Below, one piece after another: positions 2,139-39,941 of a DNA stretch of 64,000 nucleotides. Position 1 is the first letter of the stretch; each line of letters begins with the position of its first letter. This stretch comes from a virus (taxonomy: Duplodnaviria > Caudoviricetes). The stretch spans positions 32,001-96,000 of the IMG/VR virus record IMGVR_UViG_3300049892_000014; one strand, 5' to 3'. The position numbers and the translations under genes are program-made. The notes under the pieces are model-generated. The model made no database searches, was not told where the DNA came from, and saw only the letters and a list, made by a program, of their open reading frames with translations.

Positions 2139-2167
2139 TTGACAAGCTGTATTGATTATGGTATATT
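2139..2167 (+). promoter_or_regulatory. sigma70-type promoter
   Basis: TTGACA-17 bp-TATATT with TG extension, upstream of ssb. Confidence 0.8.
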
Positions 2168-11689: not shown

Positions 11690-12256
11690 CTATCTATGTA
11701 TATAAAATAGAACATCTACGCCCTCCCAACACAACATGCACCCAGGGCATGATCCTGGACATTCATGTACATTGGCAGCGTGTCTATTCTCCGTGCCGTC
11801 CTGAGTCCAAGCAAAAGCTACATTACTAGGTACTTTAGGCATCTTCATTCCAGGCCACAAACTAAAGAAGATCTTTAGGTTCTTAGGTAGTTTCTTGTAG
11901 TTCAACTGGAACATCTTAGTGAAACACAAGAATTGAGTATCGGGATATCTATCTGCTATAGACTTCATATTAGACAGATATCTCTGATTCGGAATATCCC
12001 CACCAACATGCCACCTAAAGTATTTTGGTTTTACCTTATCAAGATGGCTTTCCACCATTCCGAAATAAGTAACCGGATCGCACTTAGCTAGGTAAGAATT
12101 TTGATCCCAAGACAATTTAACCGATGGATACATAGCGTAGAACTTCTTAGCATAGCACTTAGATATGCAGGAATTACAATTTTTACAATCCACGCCAGGT
12201 ATAAGTGATATATTAGACACCTTTCCTAGCTTCTTGTTTCCTTTCGATACAGACAT
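11690..12256 (-). CDS. GP88-like Fe-S protein
   Basis: GNKKLGK, C..C..C...CYA, YFRWHVGGDI, terminal CPGSCPGCMLCW. Confidence 0.8.
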   Translation of the reverse strand: MSVSKGNKKLGKVSNISLIPGVDCKNCNSCISKCYAKKFYAMYPSVKLSWDQNSYLAKCDPVTYFGMVESHLDKVKPKYFRWHVGGDIPNQRYLSNMKSIADRYPDTQFLCFTKMFQLNYKKLPKNLKIFFSLWPGMKMPKVPSNVAFAWTQDGTENRHAANVHECPGSCPGCMLCWEGVDVLFYIHR

Positions 12257-13155
12257 TACTCCCTCCCTTCCCAGGATTCTTGGTTGACTGGATACACTTT
12301 AAGACCATTACTTCTCCACATAGCTACTACCGAAGGCCTATCGTCTACGATAAAGTCAATAGAATCCTTTCCGTATCTAGCTATAATTTTATCAAGGATC
12401 TCTTGCTTTACAATGGTATCGGCACGATGATCGCCTCCATTGCGCATAAACATGCGAACCGGAGAGACTCCATTACAAATTAGCATATCCTCGGTAAGAA
12501 TAGCCTCGTCAGTTCCTCTCCCGCTAACAATAAATGTTGTTGTAGACCGATTCATCACGTAGAACCAGTCTGCAATAGGTCTGTTAATCTTATCAAGCAT
12601 AGCTTCGTTCTTTAATGCCGATGGATGAATCCTCTTTCCATTCGCATCAACACGTCCCAATCTATGACTAATATTCATCAGGGTGCCATCTACATCCCAT
12701 ATAGTAATCTTAGACCTATTGGGATCAAGGTCTGGTAAAAGATTATATCGCAGCGCCATGTTTTCAATCACAGCCCTACCAACCCTTCCGTTCCCCTGCC
12801 GCATCCTATCTTGATATATACAATCGTTCACAGCTGTCGGCATTTCGATTAACTCAAAGACAGAATCGCACATTTCCGCAATACCACGCCACATATCTTC
12901 ATTCTTCGGGCTAAGATTTGTGTCGTCAATCACTACGTTAAATCCAAGGCCCAAAGACAGTTCTGCTATGGATTTTTCCGCACGAATAACAACATCCTCT
13001 TTCTTTCCAGACCATCGAAAATCTTTCCCGAAGATCATCAACCGAAGATCATCTCTATTGAGTCTAACTGCCGTTTTACCATTTCCCACAATCTCCCTAG
13101 ACTTCGTACTTTTACCGCTAGCTGGGAGACCCTTCATCATTATAAGTTTTGGCAT
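12256..13155 (-). CDS. pseT: polynucleotide 5'-kinase/3'-phosphatase (T4 PseT-like)
   Basis: GLPASGKST, LNRDDLR, DDTNL, HAD motif DVDGTL, SGR, VDDRPSVV. Confidence 0.95.
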   Translation of the reverse strand: MPKLIMMKGLPASGKSTKSREIVGNGKTAVRLNRDDLRLMIFGKDFRWSGKKEDVVIRAEKSIAELSLGLGFNVVIDDTNLSPKNEDMWRGIAEMCDSVFELIEMPTAVNDCIYQDRMRQGNGRVGRAVIENMALRYNLLPDLDPNRSKITIWDVDGTLMNISHRLGRVDANGKRIHPSALKNEAMLDKINRPIADWFYVMNRSTTTFIVSGRGTDEAILTEDMLICNGVSPVRMFMRNGGDHRADTIVKQEILDKIIARYGKDSIDFIVDDRPSVVAMWRSNGLKVYPVNQESWEGRE

Positions 13156-13438
13156 AGTTCACCTCCATTCTTAACATTAGGCGTAATGCTTCCTTGTCAG
13201 CTTGACTAGATTGTATCCACCACCTACAGGCGTATGACGTGGCATCCATAGATGGGTAATCAGTTCCACATCTTATTCTTTGAACATTATACATGAAAAG
13301 ATTCATATCATCCATACCTTGTATACGAATAAGATATATTCTTTTTTCCTTGATACTTACTTTGTGATAGATGCGGATGCTCTGTAGCTTGTATACTCCG
13401 TCCATATTAATGTATTCCATGTTATATGTATACATCAC
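13118..13438 (-). CDS. hypothetical protein carrying the shared C-terminal helical motif
   Basis: SSQADKEALRLMLRME. Confidence 0.55.
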   Translation of the reverse strand: MMYTYNMEYINMDGVYKLQSIRIYHKVSIKEKRIYLIRIQGMDDMNLFMYNVQRIRCGTDYPSMDATSYACRWWIQSSQADKEALRLMLRMEVNYAKTYNDEGSPS

Positions 13439-15411
13439 AACTCCTTAAATGACGAGATAGCTTCTTCTGGAAGTTGCTTCTTATATTTCAGAACAATCTT
13501 CCTTCCTAAAGCAGCGGCCTTTGGAGTAAGCCTGCCCTGTTGGGCTAAGTTTACACCTAACCTGGTATCGAATTTATTAAACCCTATACCGTCCACAGCT
13601 CTAGCTCCATCACAAAGGCCAGCTATCATCTTTAATGCTAGGTGAATATCATCTATCTGCCTAGAGGTTAGCTTTTGAGAATCAAGGGTTAATTGATCTG
13701 GAGAGACTGATTCCGTAGCAACTGGCTCGGCGTAGTTTGCGCTTAATTCCTCTAACTTTAACGCCTGTCCTACGGCCAATCCCTTATCCAATGCCTTATC
13801 GGCTACGTTCTGCTTTGTCACTGTACGTTTTGCCATCATAGAGTCTATGCTACCCTCTAATACATAATGCTGACACAGAACGCTAGACAACTGGCCGTAT
13901 CTGTGTAGTCTATCTTCGCATTGAGTGATCCATGCCGGAACCCAATCTTCTTCAGCGAAGACTGCATGACTACAAACTAGCTGAAGCTTATTTAATCCTA
14001 TACCAGCGGCTTTAATAGATCCAAGAAAAACACGACAGTTTGGATCTTCTACAAACTTCACCACCGCATCATTCTTCTCGTCTACATCTTGCTCTCCCGT
14101 TAGCCTAACGCACATACCAGGAAACTGTTCATAGAGTCCGTTAATCATATCGTGGTGGTGAGCGAAGACTACTATCTTTTTATCTGTCCCCTCAAGCATC
14201 TCACGGAGATGATTGGCTAAGATTGGGAGTTTAAGAATAGCGGTATCATGCCTAACCTTTGCCATTTCCTTAAATGCAATAGCCTGTGAATCTTTAAGCC
14301 TGCTAATAGCATTATGATAATCCTGCTGATTATCGGAAAGCTTAGCTAGTTCAGCCGCCGCTCTTAATTGACTAATATTCTCCATGCAGTTTTCATAGAA
14401 CTGTCTCTCTTTTAAGATACCTGCTAGAGTTTCGTCTTGAGCGGGGATCTCAATAACCTGTCTTATCTTAGGTGGTAGATCTGTTAAAACCTCAGCTTTT
14501 GTTCTCCTAATCATCACAGTAGATCGAAGTTTCTGCTGTAGTTCTTTAAGATTACTATGACCGGTAAAATCCCAGCCAAACCTACCCTTCTTGCCAGCGG
14601 CATATCTTAAGCCAAACTTAAAGAAGTTATCGTAATTAGCAGGATCTAACCAATTTAAGATAGGAAACAATTCTATAGTTCTGTTAAGAATCGGAGTACC
14701 AGTGAGAGCTATCATACGATCAGCCCTTAGTGGATCTAAGATCCAAACATTCCTAGCCTTCTTACCTACTACCTGGGTAGTTCTCTGCGCTTTAGGATTT
14801 TTACAGAAATGACTTTCATCTACGATAACTAGATCCCAATGCCTTTTGCGTACATCTGTAGCAAACTTTTTAAGTATGTCATAGTTGATGATGACAATGT
14901 CATCAGCCGGAAAGCTCTTAGCGCCAATTCCTACGGATAGTTTTCTGGTTAGCCAGTCGTTTAATTCATTTCTCCAGTTAATCTTAAGAGAGTTTGGGCA
15001 TATGATAAGAACTGATTTAATCTCAGGACAGTAGTTAATCACACCAATAGTCTGAGGAGTCTTACCTAATCCCATATCATCGGCTAATAAAGCATGTTTG
15101 TGCTTTAATAGAAAATCTATACCAGCCAACTGAAATGGCCTAAACTCTTTGCCTTCTGGAGTGGGTACGGATATATTACATCCCCTAGACTTACTAGCCT
15201 CTATTGTGGTATCGTATTGCGTAGACAATGCCTCCAACTCAGCCCTGCAACTACTATCAGCATATCCATATAACTTAGCGGCAATGTGTACGTCCTTGGT
15301 ATACCAATGCCTCTTAAGTACATCCCACTTAAATCCAGCCTTCTTAGGCAGATCTTTTTCCTCATATCTAGTGAGAGCTACAAAGGCATCGCCTTCTTTT
15401 TGTAACAGCAT
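13435..15411 (-). CDS. SNF2-family (HARP/SMARCAL1-like) helicase
   Basis: LLADDMGLGKT, DESH, LTGTPILNR, QCEDRLHRYGQ. Confidence 0.95.
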   Translation of the reverse strand: MLLQKEGDAFVALTRYEEKDLPKKAGFKWDVLKRHWYTKDVHIAAKLYGYADSSCRAELEALSTQYDTTIEASKSRGCNISVPTPEGKEFRPFQLAGIDFLLKHKHALLADDMGLGKTPQTIGVINYCPEIKSVLIICPNSLKINWRNELNDWLTRKLSVGIGAKSFPADDIVIINYDILKKFATDVRKRHWDLVIVDESHFCKNPKAQRTTQVVGKKARNVWILDPLRADRMIALTGTPILNRTIELFPILNWLDPANYDNFFKFGLRYAAGKKGRFGWDFTGHSNLKELQQKLRSTVMIRRTKAEVLTDLPPKIRQVIEIPAQDETLAGILKERQFYENCMENISQLRAAAELAKLSDNQQDYHNAISRLKDSQAIAFKEMAKVRHDTAILKLPILANHLREMLEGTDKKIVVFAHHHDMINGLYEQFPGMCVRLTGEQDVDEKNDAVVKFVEDPNCRVFLGSIKAAGIGLNKLQLVCSHAVFAEEDWVPAWITQCEDRLHRYGQLSSVLCQHYVLEGSIDSMMAKRTVTKQNVADKALDKGLAVGQALKLEELSANYAEPVATESVSPDQLTLDSQKLTSRQIDDIHLALKMIAGLCDGARAVDGIGFNKFDTRLGVNLAQQGRLTPKAAALGRKIVLKYKKQLPEEAISSFKEL

Positions 15412-15421
15412 GAATACTCCT

Positions 15422-15997
15422 TTAGAAGTCTAAATTCTTGTCTAGAAATTCCCTAGCTTCTTTGCCAAGTATCTCCTGCGACAGATAAGAGGTTGTTGAT
15501 GCTATAGACTTATGCCCAAGAAACGAAGAAGCTACCTGGATAGAAGTCGCTGAAGCTAATAGCATCGCCACAGACCTACGAAGTGTATGCGTTGAAGCGG
15601 CAGAACTATCCGTACCTTGTGGCATTAGTTTACTTAGTATGTACTTAAATAATTCATGACAATAGGTTCGTCCAATGGGCTTAGATGGATCTAGACCTGG
15701 AAAGAGATACTTACTTGTACCAACAACCGTAGGTAGGTATTTAATAATCCTCTCCCTAGTTGTATCGTTAATAGACCTCTCTACATACGATCCAGTCTTT
15801 TTCATCTTCCTTCTAATCGACGTGTAGACATTCCCATTCCGATCTACAACGTCCTCTATGAGCAGAGATTTCGCATCGCTAACCCTAAGACCGGTATTGC
15901 CCATAATCCTTAGCAGGACTTCGTCTCTTATAGACCTAGATCCAGCTATATCATACATCTTCTTAATCTGTGCTGCATCTAAAAATATCTTAGACAT
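15422..15997 (-). CDS. tyrosine recombinase (catalytic domain only)
   Basis: TGLRVSD, HTLRRS, LGHKSIASTTSY. Confidence 0.92.
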   Translation of the reverse strand: MSKIFLDAAQIKKMYDIAGSRSIRDEVLLRIMGNTGLRVSDAKSLLIEDVVDRNGNVYTSIRRKMKKTGSYVERSINDTTRERIIKYLPTVVGTSKYLFPGLDPSKPIGRTYCHELFKYILSKLMPQGTDSSAASTHTLRRSVAMLLASATSIQVASSFLGHKSIASTTSYLSQEILGKEAREFLDKNLDF

Positions 15998-16400
15998 ATC
16001 TTGGCCCTCTCAATCTTGCTAATAAAGATAATCTGTCTAATTCATCACTAGAACAATTGTATACATATTTAGTTATTTCTATCCTCTGCTCTACAGTTGG
16101 GTGATACCCTTCGTTAAACAAGACATGTCCAGCTTCCTGCATAATTATACATGGCAGAAATGGAGTTCTAGCCTGATACGGATGGTTAATGCTTTTACCC
16201 CTAGTGACAAACTGGAAAACCATATCACGATCCTTGTCTACTACGGCTCTGTAATATATATAACTCTTCTTTCCATTGTCTGTCAGAGTCATCCTGCGAA
16301 TACAAGAGTTTCCCTTAAATTCTGGATGATTATTTTCTGGGTTGACAATAATATCATTTATGGAATATAGCTCAGCCCTTGCTTTACGTTTTTTAACCAT
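15990..16400 (-). CDS. hypothetical protein with shared C-terminal motif
   Basis: CSSDELDRLSLLARLRG. Confidence 0.6.
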   Translation of the reverse strand: MVKKRKARAELYSINDIIVNPENNHPEFKGNSCIRRMTLTDNGKKSYIYYRAVVDKDRDMVFQFVTRGKSINHPYQARTPFLPCIIMQEAGHVLFNEGYHPTVEQRIEITKYVYNCSSDELDRLSLLARLRGPRYV

Positions 16401-16401
16401 G

Positions 16402-16677
16402 TTATTTCACTCCAAAAGTTGACAGTAATCCACGACTAATCTTTTTTCTCCTAACTTTTTTCCCATCCATGGATACAGCTACACTTCTTGCTATTGCCAT
16501 TCTGTAGACAGATTCTATAGAGATAACAATCTCATCTTTGCCACGTTGCTTAAATGCAATATATCCATCAGGTAGGATAGTCATAATGCCATAGTCCGAT
16601 TTCCTGGGTTCTATGCGATTATCCATACTTAGATTAACTCTACGCTTAATCTCTTTTCCATCTTTAAGATTGATCAC
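16402..16677 (-). CDS. hypothetical protein
   Basis: Coupled ORF with RBS. Confidence 0.6.
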   Translation of the reverse strand: MINLKDGKEIKRRVNLSMDNRIEPRKSDYGIMTILPDGYIAFKQRGKDEIVISIESVYRMAIARSVAVSMDGKKVRRKKISRGLLSTFGVK

Positions 16678-17032
16678 GTTTACCCTCCAAGGTATACATC
16701 ATCCATGCTAGTTCCGCTTCTCTACTACACATATTAGCCTCTAAGGCACCTGTATAGCATAGAAAATCAACACACTTATACCATTCAGGATGAGTACGAC
16801 CTTCAGGATACTTAAACACAGTCTTCCAAACATAGAAATAAAAATCCATAGGCCATGTTTTACTAATCACCTTCCATCCTCCATTTTCACCTGGCCTATA
16901 GAAAACAATATCATCAACTTTAGTCTTCCAGTCTTGCGTTCTAATGTACCATCGCTTTTCGCCATTAAGCTCGCAAAGCGTAGGGGGAGTTTCGATAAAT
17001 TTACCACGCAATAGTTTTTTAGCAGCAGCCAT
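16664..17032 (-). CDS. hypothetical protein with shared C-terminal motif
   Basis: CSREAELAWMMYTLEG. Confidence 0.6.
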   Translation of the reverse strand: MAAAKKLLRGKFIETPPTLCELNGEKRWYIRTQDWKTKVDDIVFYRPGENGGWKVISKTWPMDFYFYVWKTVFKYPEGRTHPEWYKCVDFLCYTGALEANMCSREAELAWMMYTLEGKRDQS

Positions 17033-17857
17033 TTATACCTCCACTAGGTTAAAGGAACTACGATATAATTTCATATCCTTCACGTCCAAAAACTTACTAA
17101 ATATCTCAGGTTCATACAGCGATATTTTGAAATCAGAGCTACATAAATACTTGTAGAAATTAGCTCCAAAGGCTATGTTTTCAGTGGTTCCAATATCATT
17201 CAAGGCCTCTGTTAAAGCCTGATAATCTACCGGCTTGTACTTCGCTCTCCCTGCGGCTTCATACGGAAGCAGGACAAAATATTTTATTCTTTCTTTGTAT
17301 GTTGTGTAGATAGACTTGAATCGTTCCACACTCTCCGAATCGCTTATGATGATATGCAGATTAGTCTGTACTTTATCATGTAGTAGATCTACCGCATTCA
17401 TCCAGTAATCAGCCAAATGAGGATGGCAACTAATAGCCACTCCACCGCATAGCTTGGCTGTATGATTTACAATCTCTTGCGTCAACCCCATCCCATTAGT
17501 TGTGTAGTTTGGGAGAATGCCATAAAAACTAAACAGTCTCAGTATTTCGTTAAAATCTGGATGCTCGTTAGGATTTCCTCCACCAATAGCTACCTGGAAC
17601 GGTCGTTGGTTGTAGGTTAATCCAAAAAAGTAACTGTCGAGTTTCTCCAGAGCATTCCTATATCCATCGCATTCGTTTCCGCTATCCTGGTAGCAATACA
17701 AGCAATTACCACGACAAGCATTAGTAATCTTCACGTCCATAAACTCAGGATATTTTAGATCAGTAATAGGTAGAGATGGATCTAGCTTTATCCGTAATGT
17801 TTTTCCACCGATAAAGAAAGATTTATAGTTATGCTCTGGAAATACTCGACTTTTCAT
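17033..17857 (-). CDS. radical SAM protein
   Basis: CRGNCLYC (CxxxCxxC), QVAIGGGNP, NYTTNG. Confidence 0.92.
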   Translation of the reverse strand: MKSRVFPEHNYKSFFIGGKTLRIKLDPSLPITDLKYPEFMDVKITNACRGNCLYCYQDSGNECDGYRNALEKLDSYFFGLTYNQRPFQVAIGGGNPNEHPDFNEILRLFSFYGILPNYTTNGMGLTQEIVNHTAKLCGGVAISCHPHLADYWMNAVDLLHDKVQTNLHIIISDSESVERFKSIYTTYKERIKYFVLLPYEAAGRAKYKPVDYQALTEALNDIGTTENIAFGANFYKYLCSSDFKISLYEPEIFSKFLDVKDMKLYRSSFNLVEV

Positions 17858-18318
17858 TAGTTGTTTACCTCCACGGATTCAAACACATTTCTAATTAAGC
17901 TAGCTAAGCCAGAAGGAGTTCCATCTAGGGCAACTATCTCTATATCCCTAGCTAAGCCAGGATTACCTTCATACTTGTGATAATCATCAACAAAGTTCTC
18001 GAATAACTTTAAGGCTTTTTCCTTGTTTTCAGTAAGCCATACCGAAGCCTTCATTGGGTTCAGGTCGCTATTCGACTCCATAAATTCAGGATGCTCACTT
18101 TCAAGCCACCAGGAAAAATCATTCCACGCCTCATCGCTAGGTACTTCGGCTATGGTGTATAAATCATTAAAGGTCTTATCTGATCCAGCTGCCTTCAAGA
18201 CCTCATTCACGATTTTAACCACCATATTCTTAGCATCTGATGATGGAAACGTATAAATCTCAGTCGAACTATTGGTAATAATATCAATAATTGACTGAGG
18301 ATGTATCCTTATCTTCAT
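17857..18318 (-). CDS. conserved phage protein (DIITNSSTE motif)
   Basis: N-terminal IIDIITNSSTEIY; coupled to the radical SAM gene. Confidence 0.7.
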   Translation of the reverse strand: MKIRIHPQSIIDIITNSSTEIYTFPSSDAKNMVVKIVNEVLKAAGSDKTFNDLYTIAEVPSDEAWNDFSWWLESEHPEFMESNSDLNPMKASVWLTENKEKALKLFENFVDDYHKYEGNPGLARDIEIVALDGTPSGLASLIRNVFESVEVNN

Positions 18319-18469
18319 AGACTTCCTCCTTCTTTATGGTTATACTAACTTACTAAGACATATCTGTATCCAGATAGGCCACTGCGGCCAGGTTGTCTTA
18401 GTCACTCTTTCTACTATCCTTATGGTACCGAGAACTATTTTACTAATCATATGTCACCTAACTAATTGC

Positions 18470-18597
18470 TCGCATAGCCAATGTCGGGATTTAAACCCGA
18501 TCCCTTGACCTACACCACATAGCAGGAGTCAAACCGTCTTAGGGTAGAGCTATGTTTCGGATGCTATCACGGCTAGCACGGCGCATTGGCTATGCGA
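18470..18597 (-). ncRNA. structured tRNA-like non-coding RNA
   Basis: 14-bp perfect terminal stem, T-arm-like hairpin, potential pseudoknot, dedicated promoter. Confidence 0.7.
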
Positions 18598-18599
18598 AC

Positions 18600-18628
18600 A
18601 ATATAACCTATTGTTCACAGATTGTCAA
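18600..18628 (-). promoter_or_regulatory. sigma70-type promoter
   Basis: TTGACA-17 bp-TATATT on the minus strand. Confidence 0.8.
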
Positions 18629-22404: not shown

Positions 22405-22705
22405 ATTTACCCCCCAACTTAATCATTAGTAAAATTTTCTCTAACTCATCTTCTGACTTGTTCATCAAAAACTTAATAGTATTCGACTGAGCGTGGTGTT
22501 CTCCTCCGTGTAATAGCACAACAAGCTTACTTAATACAACATCATTCCACTCTCTGGGCATCCACTTCTTAATAGGATTACCATAATCGCCAGGGAATGT
22601 TTTGTATAGGATAAATATGCCATTCACGTCGTAAAACCAACCCCACCCGTTAGTCGTATCAATCCATGTTCGACCTATTACACCCACTTCCATATATACC
22701 TCCAA
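22397..22705 (-). CDS. hypothetical protein with shared C-terminal motif (start probably 22693)
   Basis: KSEDELEKILLMIKLGG. Confidence 0.6.
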   Translation of the reverse strand: MEVYMEVGVIGRTWIDTTNGWGWFYDVNGIFILYKTFPGDYGNPIKKWMPREWNDVVLSKLVVLLHGGEHHAQSNTIKFLMNKSEDELEKILLMIKLGGKYV

Positions 22706-22769
22706 TTAGTATTCAATTCCAGGCTCACCCTGAGCCAAGACTGAGCTAAGGGTGAGCCAAGATTCAATA

Positions 22770-23864
22770 CTACCAGAGTCCAGCTTGCGTCAATACATCC
22801 TTAAACCGCATAGCTTCTGGCGGCGGGAGCGATGTAGACTTAGGCCGATTCTTAACAAGCAATCTAGCACAAGAAGCCGCTATGTCTGCCACGTTCAATT
22901 CGGCAGCTTTAGCCAACACTCTCCAACCATTCAGCCATCGCTCATTGGTGTTGTTACTGATAACGACAGCTGTTACTGAGGTCAGTAAGGCGTAAGCCCT
23001 ATCTCCACGTTTAGGAAGAACAAGCTTTTCGGGATGAGCCAATACAACTTCAGGATCAGGCAACTCATCACCCTCTTGAAACTTCTTAAACTCTAGAGCT
23101 GGGCCGTCCCCAACACATCCAGCTATAAGTTCAAAGACTACATCGTCAGAGTCTTTGAAACCAAACGCTCTAGCAGCAGCCAATAGCCTTGCAGCCATAT
23201 CCCATGTTCTATTACTTGGCCACGCTTTACCACGACTATCCTCATCCTTAGGAATAGCATTACGCAGATTAGGACGAGTGCGAACAAATGAAACTATCGC
23301 AGTTCGAGCTAATTGGATATTAGCAGGTTTATCCCAATCTTTAGGAAGTTCCTGCTTTTTAGACTGCGGCCATCCAGAGATCATACCCTCAGACCATGAA
23401 TCCAGAGTATCCGCAAAATCAAAGTGAACAAACCTATTAGCCAACGGAGGAGATAGCTCCCATCCATTAGCCGCTTGCTCAGGTGGATTAGCAGCAGCTA
23501 CGATAGTGACATGCTTAGGTAGCTGAAGATCACCAACAGCCTTATCTAAAACCACTCTAAGCAATGCACTCTGTACAGCCGGTGGAGCCGTAGAGATTTC
23601 ATCTAAGAATAAGACTCCAGGAATATCGGTATTCAATCGGTGCGCCCAAGACGGCGGAGCATAATGTACAACTCCATCCGCACCCTGAATAGGTAGGCCG
23701 CTAAAGTCCGAAGGTTCACGGATAGCGGCAATAACTACCTCACAGTTCCAATCCATACTCTTTGCTACGTCAACAAACCAAGAAGACTTACCAACTCCAG
23801 GAGGGCCAGTTAGTAGCACTGGAACGCCCGCCAACATTGCAATAGTCATAGCTTTACCACTCAT
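22770..23864 (-). CDS. MoxR-like AAA+ ATPase
   Basis: GPPGVGKS, LFLDEI, AAANPP, PLANRFVH; partner of the downstream VWA protein. Confidence 0.92.
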   Translation of the reverse strand: MSGKAMTIAMLAGVPVLLTGPPGVGKSSWFVDVAKSMDWNCEVVIAAIREPSDFSGLPIQGADGVVHYAPPSWAHRLNTDIPGVLFLDEISTAPPAVQSALLRVVLDKAVGDLQLPKHVTIVAAANPPEQAANGWELSPPLANRFVHFDFADTLDSWSEGMISGWPQSKKQELPKDWDKPANIQLARTAIVSFVRTRPNLRNAIPKDEDSRGKAWPSNRTWDMAARLLAAARAFGFKDSDDVVFELIAGCVGDGPALEFKKFQEGDELPDPEVVLAHPEKLVLPKRGDRAYALLTSVTAVVISNNTNERWLNGWRVLAKAAELNVADIAASCARLLVKNRPKSTSLPPPEAMRFKDVLTQAGLW

Positions 23865-39513: not shown

Positions 39514-39888
39514 ATGTGGCTGATGACGAAATACGGATTTTATTCTATAGTACAAAAACGACCTGGCATATATCATGTAAGGGCTAGGGAGGTGCATGAC
39601 TTGTATCACCTAATAGACTTCGTCCCTCTTCCAGGAAGAGAGGTTAGATTTACCGGTACTAATGATTATCTAGCCAGGCTGATTCTAAACAAGGAAGAGC
39701 TTGATAGAGTAATGACTTTCCTTAGCAATAACATTGATTACGACAACTTTAAAGATAAGATAGATAAGACTCCAGAGCAGAGACGCAAACCATACCACAA
39801 GATCTGGCAAGTATTAGCAGATGCTTTGGGAGCGTATGGTATGCCGCCTAAAAAAAATGGGGGTGAGAAAGTTTCGACAGCCGGATAA
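39514..39888 (+). CDS. conserved hypothetical protein
   Basis: MWLMTKYGFYSIVQK...VRARE...DY..R...IDYDNFK. Confidence 0.75.
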   Translation: MWLMTKYGFYSIVQKRPGIYHVRAREVHDLYHLIDFVPLPGREVRFTGTNDYLARLILNKEELDRVMTFLSNNIDYDNFKDKIDKTPEQRRKPYHKIWQVLADALGAYGMPPKKNGGEKVSTAG

Positions 39889-39941
39889 GTCCCTGCGGGG
39901 AACCTGGCTGGACCTGGGAGCGTTACCCAGCACCTCCACCA
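39859..39941 (+). ncRNA. minimal tmRNA-like RNA (tRNA-like domain only, no tag ORF)
   Basis: GGGGGTG/CACCTCC-ACCA acceptor with G3:U70, stemless D-loop ending TTCGAC, short helix 2, GGAC linker, 5-bp T stem. Confidence 0.8.

What the first reader, a model, noticed from the sequence alone, without database searches (positions are those of the whole stretch)
18470..18628. Promoter-driven ~128-nt tRNA-mimic ncRNA with a pseudoknot
Seen on the minus strand: TTGACA-17-TATATT immediately upstream; a perfect 14-bp stem joining the 5' and 3' ends (TCGCATAGCCAATG/CATTGGCTATGCGA); a D-arm-like hairpin TGCTA/TAGCA; a T-arm-like TCGGG-TTTAAAT-CCCGA stacked on the closing stem; and interleaved pairings ACATAGC/GCTATGT and TTGAC/GTCAA (H-type pseudoknot) in place of an anticodon arm. 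There is no CCA and no ORF. Known: bacterial Y RNAs (YrlA) are tRNA mimics with a long closing stem and occur in phages. Inference: a YrlA-like or new decoy RNA, or a structured leader for the radical SAM operon.
Basis: partly seen in the sequence, partly recalled or inferred. Interest (0 to 1): 0.75.

Follow-up and report, generated by a model that had tools for sequence, protein, structure and literature searches.

The report
New tRNA-shaped phage RNA with pseudoknot
A strong promoter in this uncultured 105-kb phage is followed by a folded RNA of about 125 bases that has the outline of a tRNA but a closed end and a knotted "anticodon" arm; it matches no catalogued RNA family, its fold is kept by compensating mutations in a related phage, and its job is unknown.

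Summary
The fold is under selection as RNA. A syntenic phage contig (L004) carries two tandem, diverged copies behind the same promoter. Across the three copies, 105 of 105 pair cells are standard pairs and 18 of 35 pairs changed on both sides; partners slid by one to three columns pair in only 32-38% of cells. G-U pairs fit the minus strand only.

The shape is a tRNA cloverleaf with:
- an acceptor-like helix extended to 9-17 bp and no CCA;
- a D-like hairpin;
- a 7-bp anticodon-like stem whose loop pairs with the D/anticodon linker (pseudoknot);
- a standard T arm.

UCCGAAAC and GUGUAGG are invariant.

It is not a YrlA/Y RNA: the YrlA model does not hit it, no TROVE/Ro60 gene is in the record, and the topology differs. 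tRNA and tmRNA detectors do not call it, and no Rfam family matches. No other member turned up in the viral, metagenome or genome collections or in 80 related loci. Four other syntenic relatives lack both the RNA and the promoter.

Best reading: a new, rare phage tRNA-mimic gene heading an early operon. A trans-acting role is inferred, not shown. No expression data could be obtained. Other readers of this scan flagged the same stretch; no look-alike was found on other DNA.

The parts
18600..18628 (-). Sigma-70-type promoter: TTGACA (18628-18623), 17-nt spacer, TATATT (18605-18600). The predicted start is about 18595-18593.
   Evidence: Scores 11/12, the best site in 9 kb. One of two perfect matches in the window. 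L004 keeps the same hexamers and spacing (TTGACA-17-TATTTT) although the spacer sequence has diverged. The start site is inferred from the spacing rule, not measured.
18467..18600 (-). Whole tRNA-shaped RNA element, including the outer part of the closing helix. The core scored by the covariance model is 18475-18592.
   Evidence: Fold z-score -4.0. Model R1 scores it 136 bits, and it is the only copy in the 104.9-kb genome. Covariation across three copies.
18584..18600 (-). 5' strand of the closing, acceptor-like helix. It pairs with 18467-18483. The inner 9 bp (18592-18584 with 18483-18475) were tested for covariation.
   Evidence: 9 of 9 inner pairs are kept in all three copies, and 6 changed on both sides. 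The outer GUUCGCAU/AUGCGARC is conserved in sequence in the promoter-proximal copy of both phages.
18467..18483 (-). 3' strand of the closing helix. It is not followed by CCA.
   Evidence: All 10 true tRNAs of the window encode CCA.
18558..18583 (-). D-like arm: C18583-G18558, G18582-C18559, G18579-U18561, then the 5-bp stem UGCUA/UAGCA with the 7-nt loop GCCGUGA.
   Evidence: 8 pairs, 100% paired, 4 with changes on both sides. RNAalifold also predicts this arm.
18554..18561 (-). Invariant motif UCCGAAAC. It bridges the D-like arm and the pseudoknot helix.
   Evidence: Identical in all three copies, which are only 55-76% identical overall.
18549..18555 (-). Pseudoknot 5' strand ACAUAGC, in the long linker between the D-like and anticodon-like arms.
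   Evidence: Pairs with 18517-18523. Of the 6 pairs counted, all are paired, one is a compensatory A-U to G-C change and one a G-C to G-U change. The seventh pair (C-G, C-G, U-G) was read by eye.
18504..18533 (-). Anticodon-like arm: a 7-bp stem (18533-18527 with 18510-18504) closing a 16-nt loop. The loop holds the pseudoknot 3' strand GCUAUGU (18523-18517) and part of the invariant GUGUAGG (18515-18509).
   Evidence: 7 pairs, 100% paired, 4 with changes on both sides.
18484..18500 (-). T arm: 5-bp stem UCGGG/CCCGA and 7-nt loop UUUAAAU, stacked directly on the closing helix.
   Evidence: 5 pairs, 3 with changes on both sides. The loop is the canonical UUCGAAU or UUCGAAC in the two L004 copies.
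18319..18466 (-). Rest of the 5' leader, running to the start codon of the 153-aa ORF (18318). It holds no terminator-like site.
   Evidence: No terminator-like site between the RNA and the ORF. The Shine-Dalgarno sequence is unpaired in folds. There is no significant similarity to the second L004 copy.

Best explanation
The element is a gene for a new, rare family of tRNA-shaped phage RNA.

Proposed mechanism:
1. A strong host-type (sigma-70) promoter starts transcription inside the 5' strand of the closing helix. The RNA is therefore born with its 5' end base-paired.
2. It folds on its own into a four-arm cloverleaf: an acceptor-like helix stacked on a standard T arm, a D-like hairpin, and an anticodon-like arm.
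3. Three features make it unusable as a tRNA. The acceptor helix runs on past 7 bp. There is no CCA. The 'anticodon' loop is locked by a 7-bp pseudoknot to the expanded linker between the D and anticodon arms.
4. No terminator follows, so it is made at the head of the transcript for a long early operon: 153-aa protein, radical SAM enzyme, short tyrosine recombinase, SNF2 helicase, polynucleotide kinase-phosphatase. It is probably cut free like the tRNAs that precede tufB in E. coli.
5. It then acts in trans as a tRNA mimic. The acceptor/T-arm face would offer a tRNA-like surface, and the invariant UCCGAAAC / GUGUAGG core would be the specific binding site for a still unknown protein.

Shown: the sequence features, conservation of the promoter, RNA-level selection on every helix, absence from catalogued families, and patchy presence as a 'promoter + RNA' module.

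Inferred: the start site, processing, stability, action in trans, and the partner.
For: Real RNA structure:
- Three copies (this window, L004:2662-2792 and L004:2814-2934) are 55-76% identical.
- 105 of 105 cells are standard pairs, and 18 of 35 pairs changed on both sides. 0 of 500 shuffles reach this, and slid controls pair in 32-38% of cells (an alternative D stem).
- G-U pairs (columns 6-127, 10-36, 14-33, 44-85, 80-97) would be A-C mismatches on the other strand.
- The domain folds the same way inside the full leader.

tRNA shape:
- The T arm abuts the closing helix. The loop is UUCGAAU/UUCGAAC in L004.
- The only weak Rfam hits are tRNA (13.6 bits) and mascRNA (13.6 bits), both on the T-arm region.
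- Model R1 picks up ordinary tRNAs at about 20 bits.

Promoter:
- It is the best site in 9 kb, and its hexamers and 17-nt spacing are kept in L004 while the spacer sequence diverged.

Gene-like module rather than an obligatory leader:
- L004 has two diverged tandem copies, each keeping the fold.
- Syntenic relatives L008, L009, L127 and L132 have the same downstream genes but a 12-46 nt gap or overlap, with no promoter and no RNA.
- The RNA is more conserved (76% between the window copy and L004b) than the adjacent protein (47% amino-acid identity).

Not a working tRNA:
- ARAGORN and Rfam do not call it.
- It has no CCA, while all 10 phage tRNAs encode CCA.
- The pair just outside the 7-bp acceptor covaries (column 2-131: G-C, G-C, A-U), so the longer helix is selected.
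Against: - A discrete transcript, its ends and any processing are therefore unproven.
- Only three copies from two phage lineages exist. Covariation counts on three sequences cannot be turned into a proper probability, and the alignment was fitted to the model.
- No terminator separates the RNA from the operon, so a purely cis role is equally compatible with the layout.
- The outer helix GUUCGCAU/AUGCGARC is conserved yet would be only partly transcribed from this promoter. This hints at a role in read-through transcripts or at the DNA level that the model does not explain.
- The window copy has UUUAAAU instead of UUCGAAU in the T loop, and no copy has the D-loop GG. The canonical tRNA elbow may therefore not form.
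- No partner protein is identified. The adjacent 153-aa protein has no family or fold match and occurs without the RNA in relatives.
Confidence: 0.45

Rival explanations
1. Cis-acting 5' leader module. The tRNA-shaped fold serves the downstream operon only. It could be a processing handle cut by RNase P, RNase Z or RNase E (or RNase III on the 17-bp helix) that defines the mRNA 5' end. It could also be a base-paired 5' end that protects the mRNA from 5'-end-dependent decay. The excised piece would have no function of its own.
For: - No terminator lies between the RNA and the 153-aa ORF, and the promoter is the only strong one for a long run of tightly packed minus-strand genes.
- The predicted start lies inside the closing helix, so the 5' end is paired (inference).
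- The closing helix plus the stacked T stem gives about 22 bp of continuous helix.
- From general knowledge, tRNA-like processing handles are known: mascRNA, plant mitochondrial t-elements, and the E. coli tufB operon.
Against: - A stabiliser or cutting handle does not need an invariant internal core (UCCGAAAC, GUGUAGG), a pseudoknot and a D-like arm, all of which are under selection.
- Two diverged tandem copies are kept in L004.
- Relatives express the same operon layout without any such leader.
- The Shine-Dalgarno sequence is unpaired in folds, so there is no sign of translational control.
Confidence: 0.3
2. YrlA-type bacterial/phage Y RNA that tethers a Ro60 (Rsr) protein.
For: - General likeness: about 125 nt, a long stem joining the 5' and 3' ends, a tRNA-like domain with a T arm, and no free CCA end.
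- YrlA RNAs occur in mycobacteriophages (PMC4201824).
- The internal UCCGA resembles the vertebrate Ro60-contact motif GGUCCGA quoted in that paper. In L004a it reads GUCCGA.
- The operon includes an RNA-repair enzyme (a PNKP-like gene at 12256-13155), loosely recalling rsr-yrlBA-rtcBA (general knowledge).
Against: - Rfam YrlA (RF02553, threshold 69 bits) does not hit the element. Its best hits in the genome are plain tRNAs at 19 bits or less.
- No TROVE domain is found in the 104.9-kb record, while the control genomes ring as expected.
- GNCGAAN0-1G is absent near the 5' end.
- The ends join at the acceptor position rather than the anticodon position (PMC4201824).
Confidence: 0.03
3. Decaying or duplicated tRNA gene: a pseudogene with insertions in the D and anticodon regions and no present function.
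For: - The phage carries at least 10 tRNA genes.
- The element has a tRNA outline.
- The window copy has a degenerate T loop (UUUAAAU).
Against: - A relic would not keep 100% pairing with 18 doubly changed pairs across copies that are only 55-76% identical. It would also not keep invariant non-tRNA motifs or a dedicated conserved promoter.
- The pairs that extend the acceptor helix beyond 7 bp covary.
Confidence: 0.04
4. DNA-level element. The 17-bp inverted repeat would be an operator pair, a recombination or attachment site for the nearby tyrosine recombinase, or the ends of a miniature mobile element.
For: - The outer repeat halves TGTTCGCAT / ATGCGARCA are conserved in sequence in both phages, and one half overlaps the promoter's start region.
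- A catalytic-domain-only tyrosine recombinase lies 2.5 kb downstream in all relatives.
- The presence of the module is patchy.
Against: - The inner helix, and all internal helices, change sequence while keeping pairing and use G-U pairs that work on one strand only. That is the signature of RNA, not of protein-binding DNA.
- The second L004 copy lacks the outer repeat altogether.
- No other copy exists in the genome, and none was found in any collection scanned.
Confidence: 0.05

Closest known systems
YrlA / bacterial Y RNAs (Rfam RF02553; Chen et al. 2014, PMC4201824)
   Same: - Size of about 110-130 nt.
- A long helix joins the 5' and 3' ends.
- A tRNA-like domain with a true T arm.
- No free CCA end.
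- Members are encoded by some phages.
- The proposed logic is the same: a tRNA mimic that recruits a protein.
   Different: - The covariance model gives no match.
- No Ro60/TROVE neighbour.
- No GNCGAAN0-1G motif near the 5' end.
- Opposite topology: here the ends join at the acceptor position and the anticodon-like arm is capped and pseudoknotted.
- The D loop lacks the conserved GG.
Phage T4 small stable RNAs, species 1 (rnaC) and species 2 (rnaD), NC_000866 70908-71171
   Same: - Phage-encoded stable RNAs of about 120-140 nt with unknown function.
- rnaC ends in a canonical T arm (ACCGGGUUCGAAUCCCGGU-type) stacked on a 7-bp acceptor-like helix, with an oversized interior.
   Different: - The T4 RNAs lie inside the tRNA cluster and are processed from its transcript. 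They have no promoter of their own at the head of an mRNA operon.
- R1 scores rnaC only 18.8 bits, through the T arm and acceptor.
- The UCCGAAAC and GUGUAGG motifs and the pseudoknot are absent, so homology is not shown.
tmRNA tRNA-like domain with pseudoknot PK1
   Same: - An acceptor/T-arm stack.
- A degenerate D region.
- GGA(C/U) just before the T stem.
- A pseudoknot inside the body.
   Different: - No CCA, no G3:U70 pair, and no tag reading frame.
- ARAGORN and the Rfam tmRNA models do not call it.
- It has a real four-way junction with a capped anticodon-like arm.
tRNA-like processing handles (MALAT1 mascRNA, RF01684; tRNAs upstream of tufB in E. coli)
   Same: A tRNA-shaped unit co-transcribed with a longer RNA and probably released by tRNA-processing enzymes. 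The weak Rfam match to mascRNA covers the T arm (13.6 bits).
   Different: The handles have no conserved extra core and no pseudoknot. Here the acceptor helix is extended and selected beyond 7 bp, which should hinder RNase P. Cleavage was not tested.

Membership tests
YrlA / bacterial Y RNA | Match to the family covariance model (Rfam RF02553, gathering score 69 bits) | tested here: not met
   No hit at the element even at E up to 10. The best hits in the genome are ordinary tRNAs at 19.1 bits or less.
YrlA / bacterial Y RNA | Encoded within about 4 kb of a Ro60/TROVE gene on the same strand (PMC4201824) | tested here: not met
   PF05731 gives no match at E up to 1 in the 104,912-base record, while the controls Deinococcus and Bacteroides ring. 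The record is estimated to be 82% complete, so a distant gene cannot be excluded.
YrlA / bacterial Y RNA | GNCGAAN0-1G motif near the 5' end, in the Ro60-binding stem | tested here: not met
   The 5' strand reads GUUCGCAUAGCC. The nearest likeness is the internal UCCGAAAC at 18561-18554, which is not in the closing stem.
YrlA / bacterial Y RNA | Topology: the RNA ends form the stem at the anticodon position, and the acceptor stem is capped by a loop | tested here: not met
   Here the ends form the acceptor-position helix, which abuts the T arm, and the anticodon-position arm is capped (PMC4201824).
tRNA (RF00005) | Called by tRNA detectors; 7-nt anticodon loop; 7-bp acceptor with a free 3' end and CCA | tested here: not met
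   ARAGORN makes no call. Rfam tRNA scores 13.6 bits against a 29-bit threshold, and in a wrong register. The loop is 16 nt and pseudoknotted. There is no CCA, although all 10 phage tRNAs encode it.
tRNA (RF00005) | T arm: 5-bp stem ending in G53-C61 and a 7-nt loop UUCRANY, stacked on the acceptor helix | tested here: met
   UCGGG-UUUAAAU-CCCGA in the window; CUGGG-UUCGAAU-CCCAG and UCUGG-UUCGAAC-CCAGA in L004. In the window copy C56 is replaced by U.
tmRNA | Alanine-type acceptor (G3:U70, ACCA end), a tag reading frame, and a call by ARAGORN or the Rfam tmRNA models | tested here: not met
   No call. Position 3 of the helix is a C-G pair. There is no CCA and no conserved ORF.
T4 species 1 RNA (rnaC) kind | Sequence and structure homology to rnaC | tested here: inconclusive
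   R1 scores rnaC 18.8 bits (E about 8e-4 in 4 kb), through the T arm and acceptor only. The family-specific motifs are absent. The likeness is of kind; descent is not shown.
New family defined here (model R1) | Closing helix of at least 9 bp, D-like arm, UCCGAAAC, pseudoknot ACAURGY/RYYAUGU, 7-bp anticodon-like stem, GUGUAGG, GGA, and T arm | tested here: met
   The window copy scores 136 bits, and the L004 copies 140 and 123 bits. These sequences built the model, so the scores are circular. Independent support comes from covariation.

The most novel reading that the evidence does not exclude
This would be the founding member of a new class of phage tRNA mimic. It is a closed-ended cloverleaf whose anticodon loop is locked by a pseudoknot. 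It is carried as a mobile 'promoter + RNA' module and made early in infection. It would bind and divert a host factor that recognises the acceptor/T-arm face of tRNA, for example a tRNA-directed defence enzyme or a tRNA-processing or modifying enzyme. It might work together with the RNA-repair genes of the same operon.
Probability: 0.25. Interest if true: 0.75.

Novelty: new variant of a known kind. Interest (0 to 1): 0.55.

Why it matters
Phages are known to carry tRNAs, tmRNA-like RNAs, Y RNAs and orphan stable RNAs such as T4 species 1 and 2. The function of tRNA-shaped RNAs that cannot decode has been open since the 1970s.

This element gives a compact case of about 125 nt with a defined promoter, a fold backed by compensatory change, an invariant core that looks like a binding site, and natural 'with' and 'without' relatives. 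It is therefore a tractable handle for asking what such mimics bind. If the partner is a host defence or tRNA-processing factor, this would add an RNA-based strategy to phage counter-defence.

The weakness is rarity: two lineages and three copies, with no expression data.

Tried and rejected
- Near and distant DNA searches of the phage record collection found nothing.
- Five motif scans found no further member. They used family-specific patterns against viral contigs, metagenome contigs and one genome per species. All hits were chance matches, ordinary tRNAs or unrelated hammerhead-like repeats.
- Model R1 was run over 80 viral loci that encode the radical SAM homologue, plus other relatives. 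It found only plain tRNAs at about 20 bits.
- My first D stem (CCG/CGG, 18581-18579 with 18536-18534) fails in L004a, with 78% of cells paired. I replaced it with the arm RNAalifold predicts, which pairs in all copies.
- I suspected that the window's leader at 18330-18466 is a decayed second copy, as the alignment suggested. Local alignment scores equal those of shuffled sequence and R1 finds nothing there, so I rejected the idea.
- A hammerhead core and SAM riboswitches were considered because of CGAAAC and the radical SAM neighbour. No Rfam match appears at E up to 10, and there is no CUGAUGA with a stem II.
- A type III toxin-antitoxin repeat array was considered because of the tandem copies upstream of a small protein. 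The protein is acidic, has no ToxN-like or any other family match, and occurs without the RNA.
- The 153-aa neighbour was folded (pLDDT 74). A Foldseek search against PDB gave no match better than E = 0.5.
- The records behind L002 and L004 are not held, so their genomes could not be searched.
- The contig of P0007 (ERR11594402) has a 374-nt gap at the right place, but its DNA could not be fetched.

Full report
**What is there.**
The window is part of a 104,912-base uncultured virus record (IMG/VR). The record is a tailed-phage-like genome with at least ten tRNA genes.

On the minus strand I confirmed each feature reported:
- TTGACA (18628-18623), a 17-nt spacer, then TATATT (18605-18600).
- A helix joining 18600-18584 to 18483-18467.
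- The hairpin UGCUA-GCCGUGA-UAGCA.
- The T arm UCGGG-UUUAAAU-CCCGA (18500-18484), directly abutting the closing helix.
- The interleaved pairings ACAUAGC/GCUAUGU and UUGAC/GUCAA.

The stretch folds better than all 200 dinucleotide shuffles (z = -4.0). It holds no ORF that is conserved in the relative.

**Promoter.**
The site scores 11 of 12, the best in a 9-kb scan. It is one of only two perfect TTGACA-N16-18-TATNNT sites in 64 kb. The other precedes what looks like an SSB gene.

In the related contig L004 the hexamers and the 17-nt spacing are kept (TTGACA-17-TATTTT) while the spacer sequence has diverged. That is the pattern expected of a working promoter.

With the -10 hexamer ending at 18600, the start should fall near 18595-18593 (inference). 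The RNA made from this promoter would then have a 10-12 bp closing helix and a fully paired 5' end. No terminator-like site lies between the RNA and the next ORF at 18318.

**Relatives and covariation.**
Protein searches with the two downstream genes led to syntenic phage contigs.

One lineage (L004-L007, JGI samples) has a 354-nt gap at the same place. The gap holds the promoter and two tandem copies of the element, at L004:2662-2792 and 2814-2934.

The three copies are 55-76% identical. I built covariance model R1 from them, which aligns them at 123-140 bits.

On that alignment, the final structure shows:

| Measure | Result |
|---|---|
| Cells forming standard pairs | 105 of 105 |
| Pairs changed on both sides | 18 of 35 |
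| Shuffles reaching this | 0 of 500 |
| Cells paired when partners are slid 1-3 columns | 32-38% |

Doubly changed pairs by helix:

| Helix | Doubly changed pairs |
|---|---|
| Closing helix | 6 of 9 |
| D-like arm | 4 of 8 |
| Anticodon-like stem | 4 of 7 |
| T stem | 3 of 5 |
| Pseudoknot | 1 of 6, plus one wobble change |

Several G-U pairs would be A-C mismatches on the other strand, so the selection acts on minus-strand RNA.

Two caveats apply. There are only three sequences, and the alignment was fitted to a model built from them. My first D stem failed in one copy, and I replaced it with the arm that RNAalifold predicts.

**Anatomy.**
The outline is a tRNA cloverleaf:
- The closing helix and T stem stack as the acceptor and T arm do.
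- A D-like hairpin follows the closing helix with no spacer.
- A 7-bp stem sits at the anticodon position.
- Three to four nucleotides ending in GGA precede the T stem.

The differences are systematic:
- The helix continues beyond 7 bp, and the first extra pair covaries.
- There is no CCA, although all ten tRNAs of this phage encode CCA.
- The linker between the D and anticodon arms is about 35-50 nt instead of 1.
- The 16-nt 'anticodon' loop pairs with that linker.
- UCCGAAAC and GUGUAGG, which flank the pseudoknot helix, are invariant.

The domain keeps its fold inside the full leader of both phages.

**What it is not.**
- No Rfam family reaches threshold in the window apart from true tRNAs.
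- At E up to 10, the local hits are tRNA and mascRNA fragments on the T arm, 13.6 bits each.
- ARAGORN calls neither a tRNA nor a tmRNA.
- The YrlA model (RF02553, threshold 69 bits) hits only ordinary tRNAs, at 19 bits or less.
- No TROVE/Ro60 domain is in the record, while control genomes ring.
- The YrlA motif GNCGAAN0-1G is absent near the 5' end, and the topology is the reverse of YrlA's (PMC4201824).

The YrlA reading therefore fails four defining features.

T4 species 1 RNA (rnaC) is the nearest in kind. It also ends in a T arm stacked on a 7-bp helix with an oversized interior. R1 scores it only 18.8 bits and the family motifs are missing.

**Distribution.**
- R1 finds one copy in the whole record.
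- It finds none in 80 IMG/VR loci that encode the radical SAM homologue.
- Five motif scans of the viral, metagenome and species-genome collections found no member.
- Four other syntenic relatives (L008, L009, L127-type, L132) have the 147-157-aa gene directly behind the upstream gene, with a gap of 46 nt or less or an overlap. They have no promoter and no RNA there.
- The 153-aa proteins of RNA-bearing and RNA-lacking phages are about equally distant from one another, at 34-49% identity.

So presence is patchy, and the unit that comes and goes is 'promoter + RNA'.

**Mechanism.**
I commit to a stable tRNA-shaped RNA made at the head of an early operon and acting as a tRNA mimic. The acceptor/T-arm face would give a tRNA-like surface. 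The closed end and the locked loop would keep it out of aminoacylation and decoding. The invariant core would be the specific contact for an unknown partner.

Arguments for a gene-like unit rather than a mere leader:
- the selected internal core;
- the two diverged tandem paralogues;
- the dispensability of the element for the operon in relatives;
- conservation higher than that of the neighbouring protein.

The main rival is a cis-acting processing or stabilising leader, which I rate at 0.3. It would also explain the paired 5' end, and the roughly 22-bp coaxial helix could be an RNase III site in read-through RNA.

The conserved outer stem GUUCGCAU/AUGCGARC remains unexplained. It is only partly transcribed from this promoter.

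**Context checks that led nowhere.**
- The 153-aa neighbour has no Pfam, PHROG or NCBIfam match.
- Its model (pLDDT 74) has no PDB fold match.
- The 274-aa neighbour is a generic radical SAM enzyme of a large phage family.
- The idea that the window's downstream leader is a decayed second copy was tested and rejected.

**Verdict.**
It is a new, rare family within the known broad kind of phage tRNA mimics. It is not YrlA. Its function is unknown.

Interest is moderate. The fold and the natural presence/absence contrast make it testable, but its narrow distribution and the lack of expression data limit what can be claimed.

Noticed in passing
window 17857-18318 (-) and 17033-17857 (-): The 153-aa protein belongs to a large family: 1056 representatives at E up to 0.001. 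In every contig looked at it sits directly upstream of the radical SAM gene. Its invariant N-terminal stretch IDIITNSSTEIYTFPS is the lowest-confidence part of the model (residues 11-25, pLDDT below 50). It could be a substrate or partner segment for the radical SAM enzyme.
   Followed up: partly
window 12256-18600 (-): The genes behind the promoter are tightly packed on one strand: 153-aa protein, radical SAM enzyme, three small ORFs, a 191-aa tyrosine recombinase consisting of the catalytic domain only, an SNF2-type helicase, and a PNKP-like kinase-phosphatase. The order is kept in relatives. The short recombinase in a seemingly lytic phage is unexplained.
   Followed up: partly
window 39859-39941 (+): This stretch reads like a tmRNA tRNA-like domain alone: GGGGGUG..., UUUCGAC, GGAC plus a T arm, ending ACCA (printed). 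Neither ARAGORN nor Rfam at gathering score calls it. Its GUUUCG is complementary to the invariant CGAAAC of the element studied here. At six bases, that may well be chance.
   Followed up: no
L013, L021, L023, L027, L032, L034 (termite-gut metagenome contigs): The first motif scan picked up a repeated element reading ...CUGAUGA-hairpin-CGAAAC-AUGUAGCC... It looks like a hammerhead ribozyme core in multi-copy DNA and is unrelated to the phage RNA.
   Followed up: no
window 22700-22790 (-): One of the early-gene hairpin leaders noted by other readers, CUUGGCUCACCC...GGGUGAGCCUGG, lies just upstream of a ribosome-binding site. It shares only the hexamer UUGGCU with the element's 3' strand. The L004 copies lack that hexamer, so no relation is inferred.
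   Followed up: partly
window 2139-2167 (+): The only other perfect TTGACA-17-TATATT promoter in the window lies about 40 nt upstream of a 124-aa ORF (2207-2581). By eye the ORF looks like a single-stranded-DNA-binding protein; this was not tested.
   Followed up: no
L122 (phage T4, NC_000866 70908-71046): T4 species 1 RNA (rnaC) ends in a canonical T arm stacked on a 7-bp helix (ACGGAAC/GUUUCGU) and folds with z = -4.6. It is itself a tRNA-shaped RNA with an oversized interior.
   Followed up: partly
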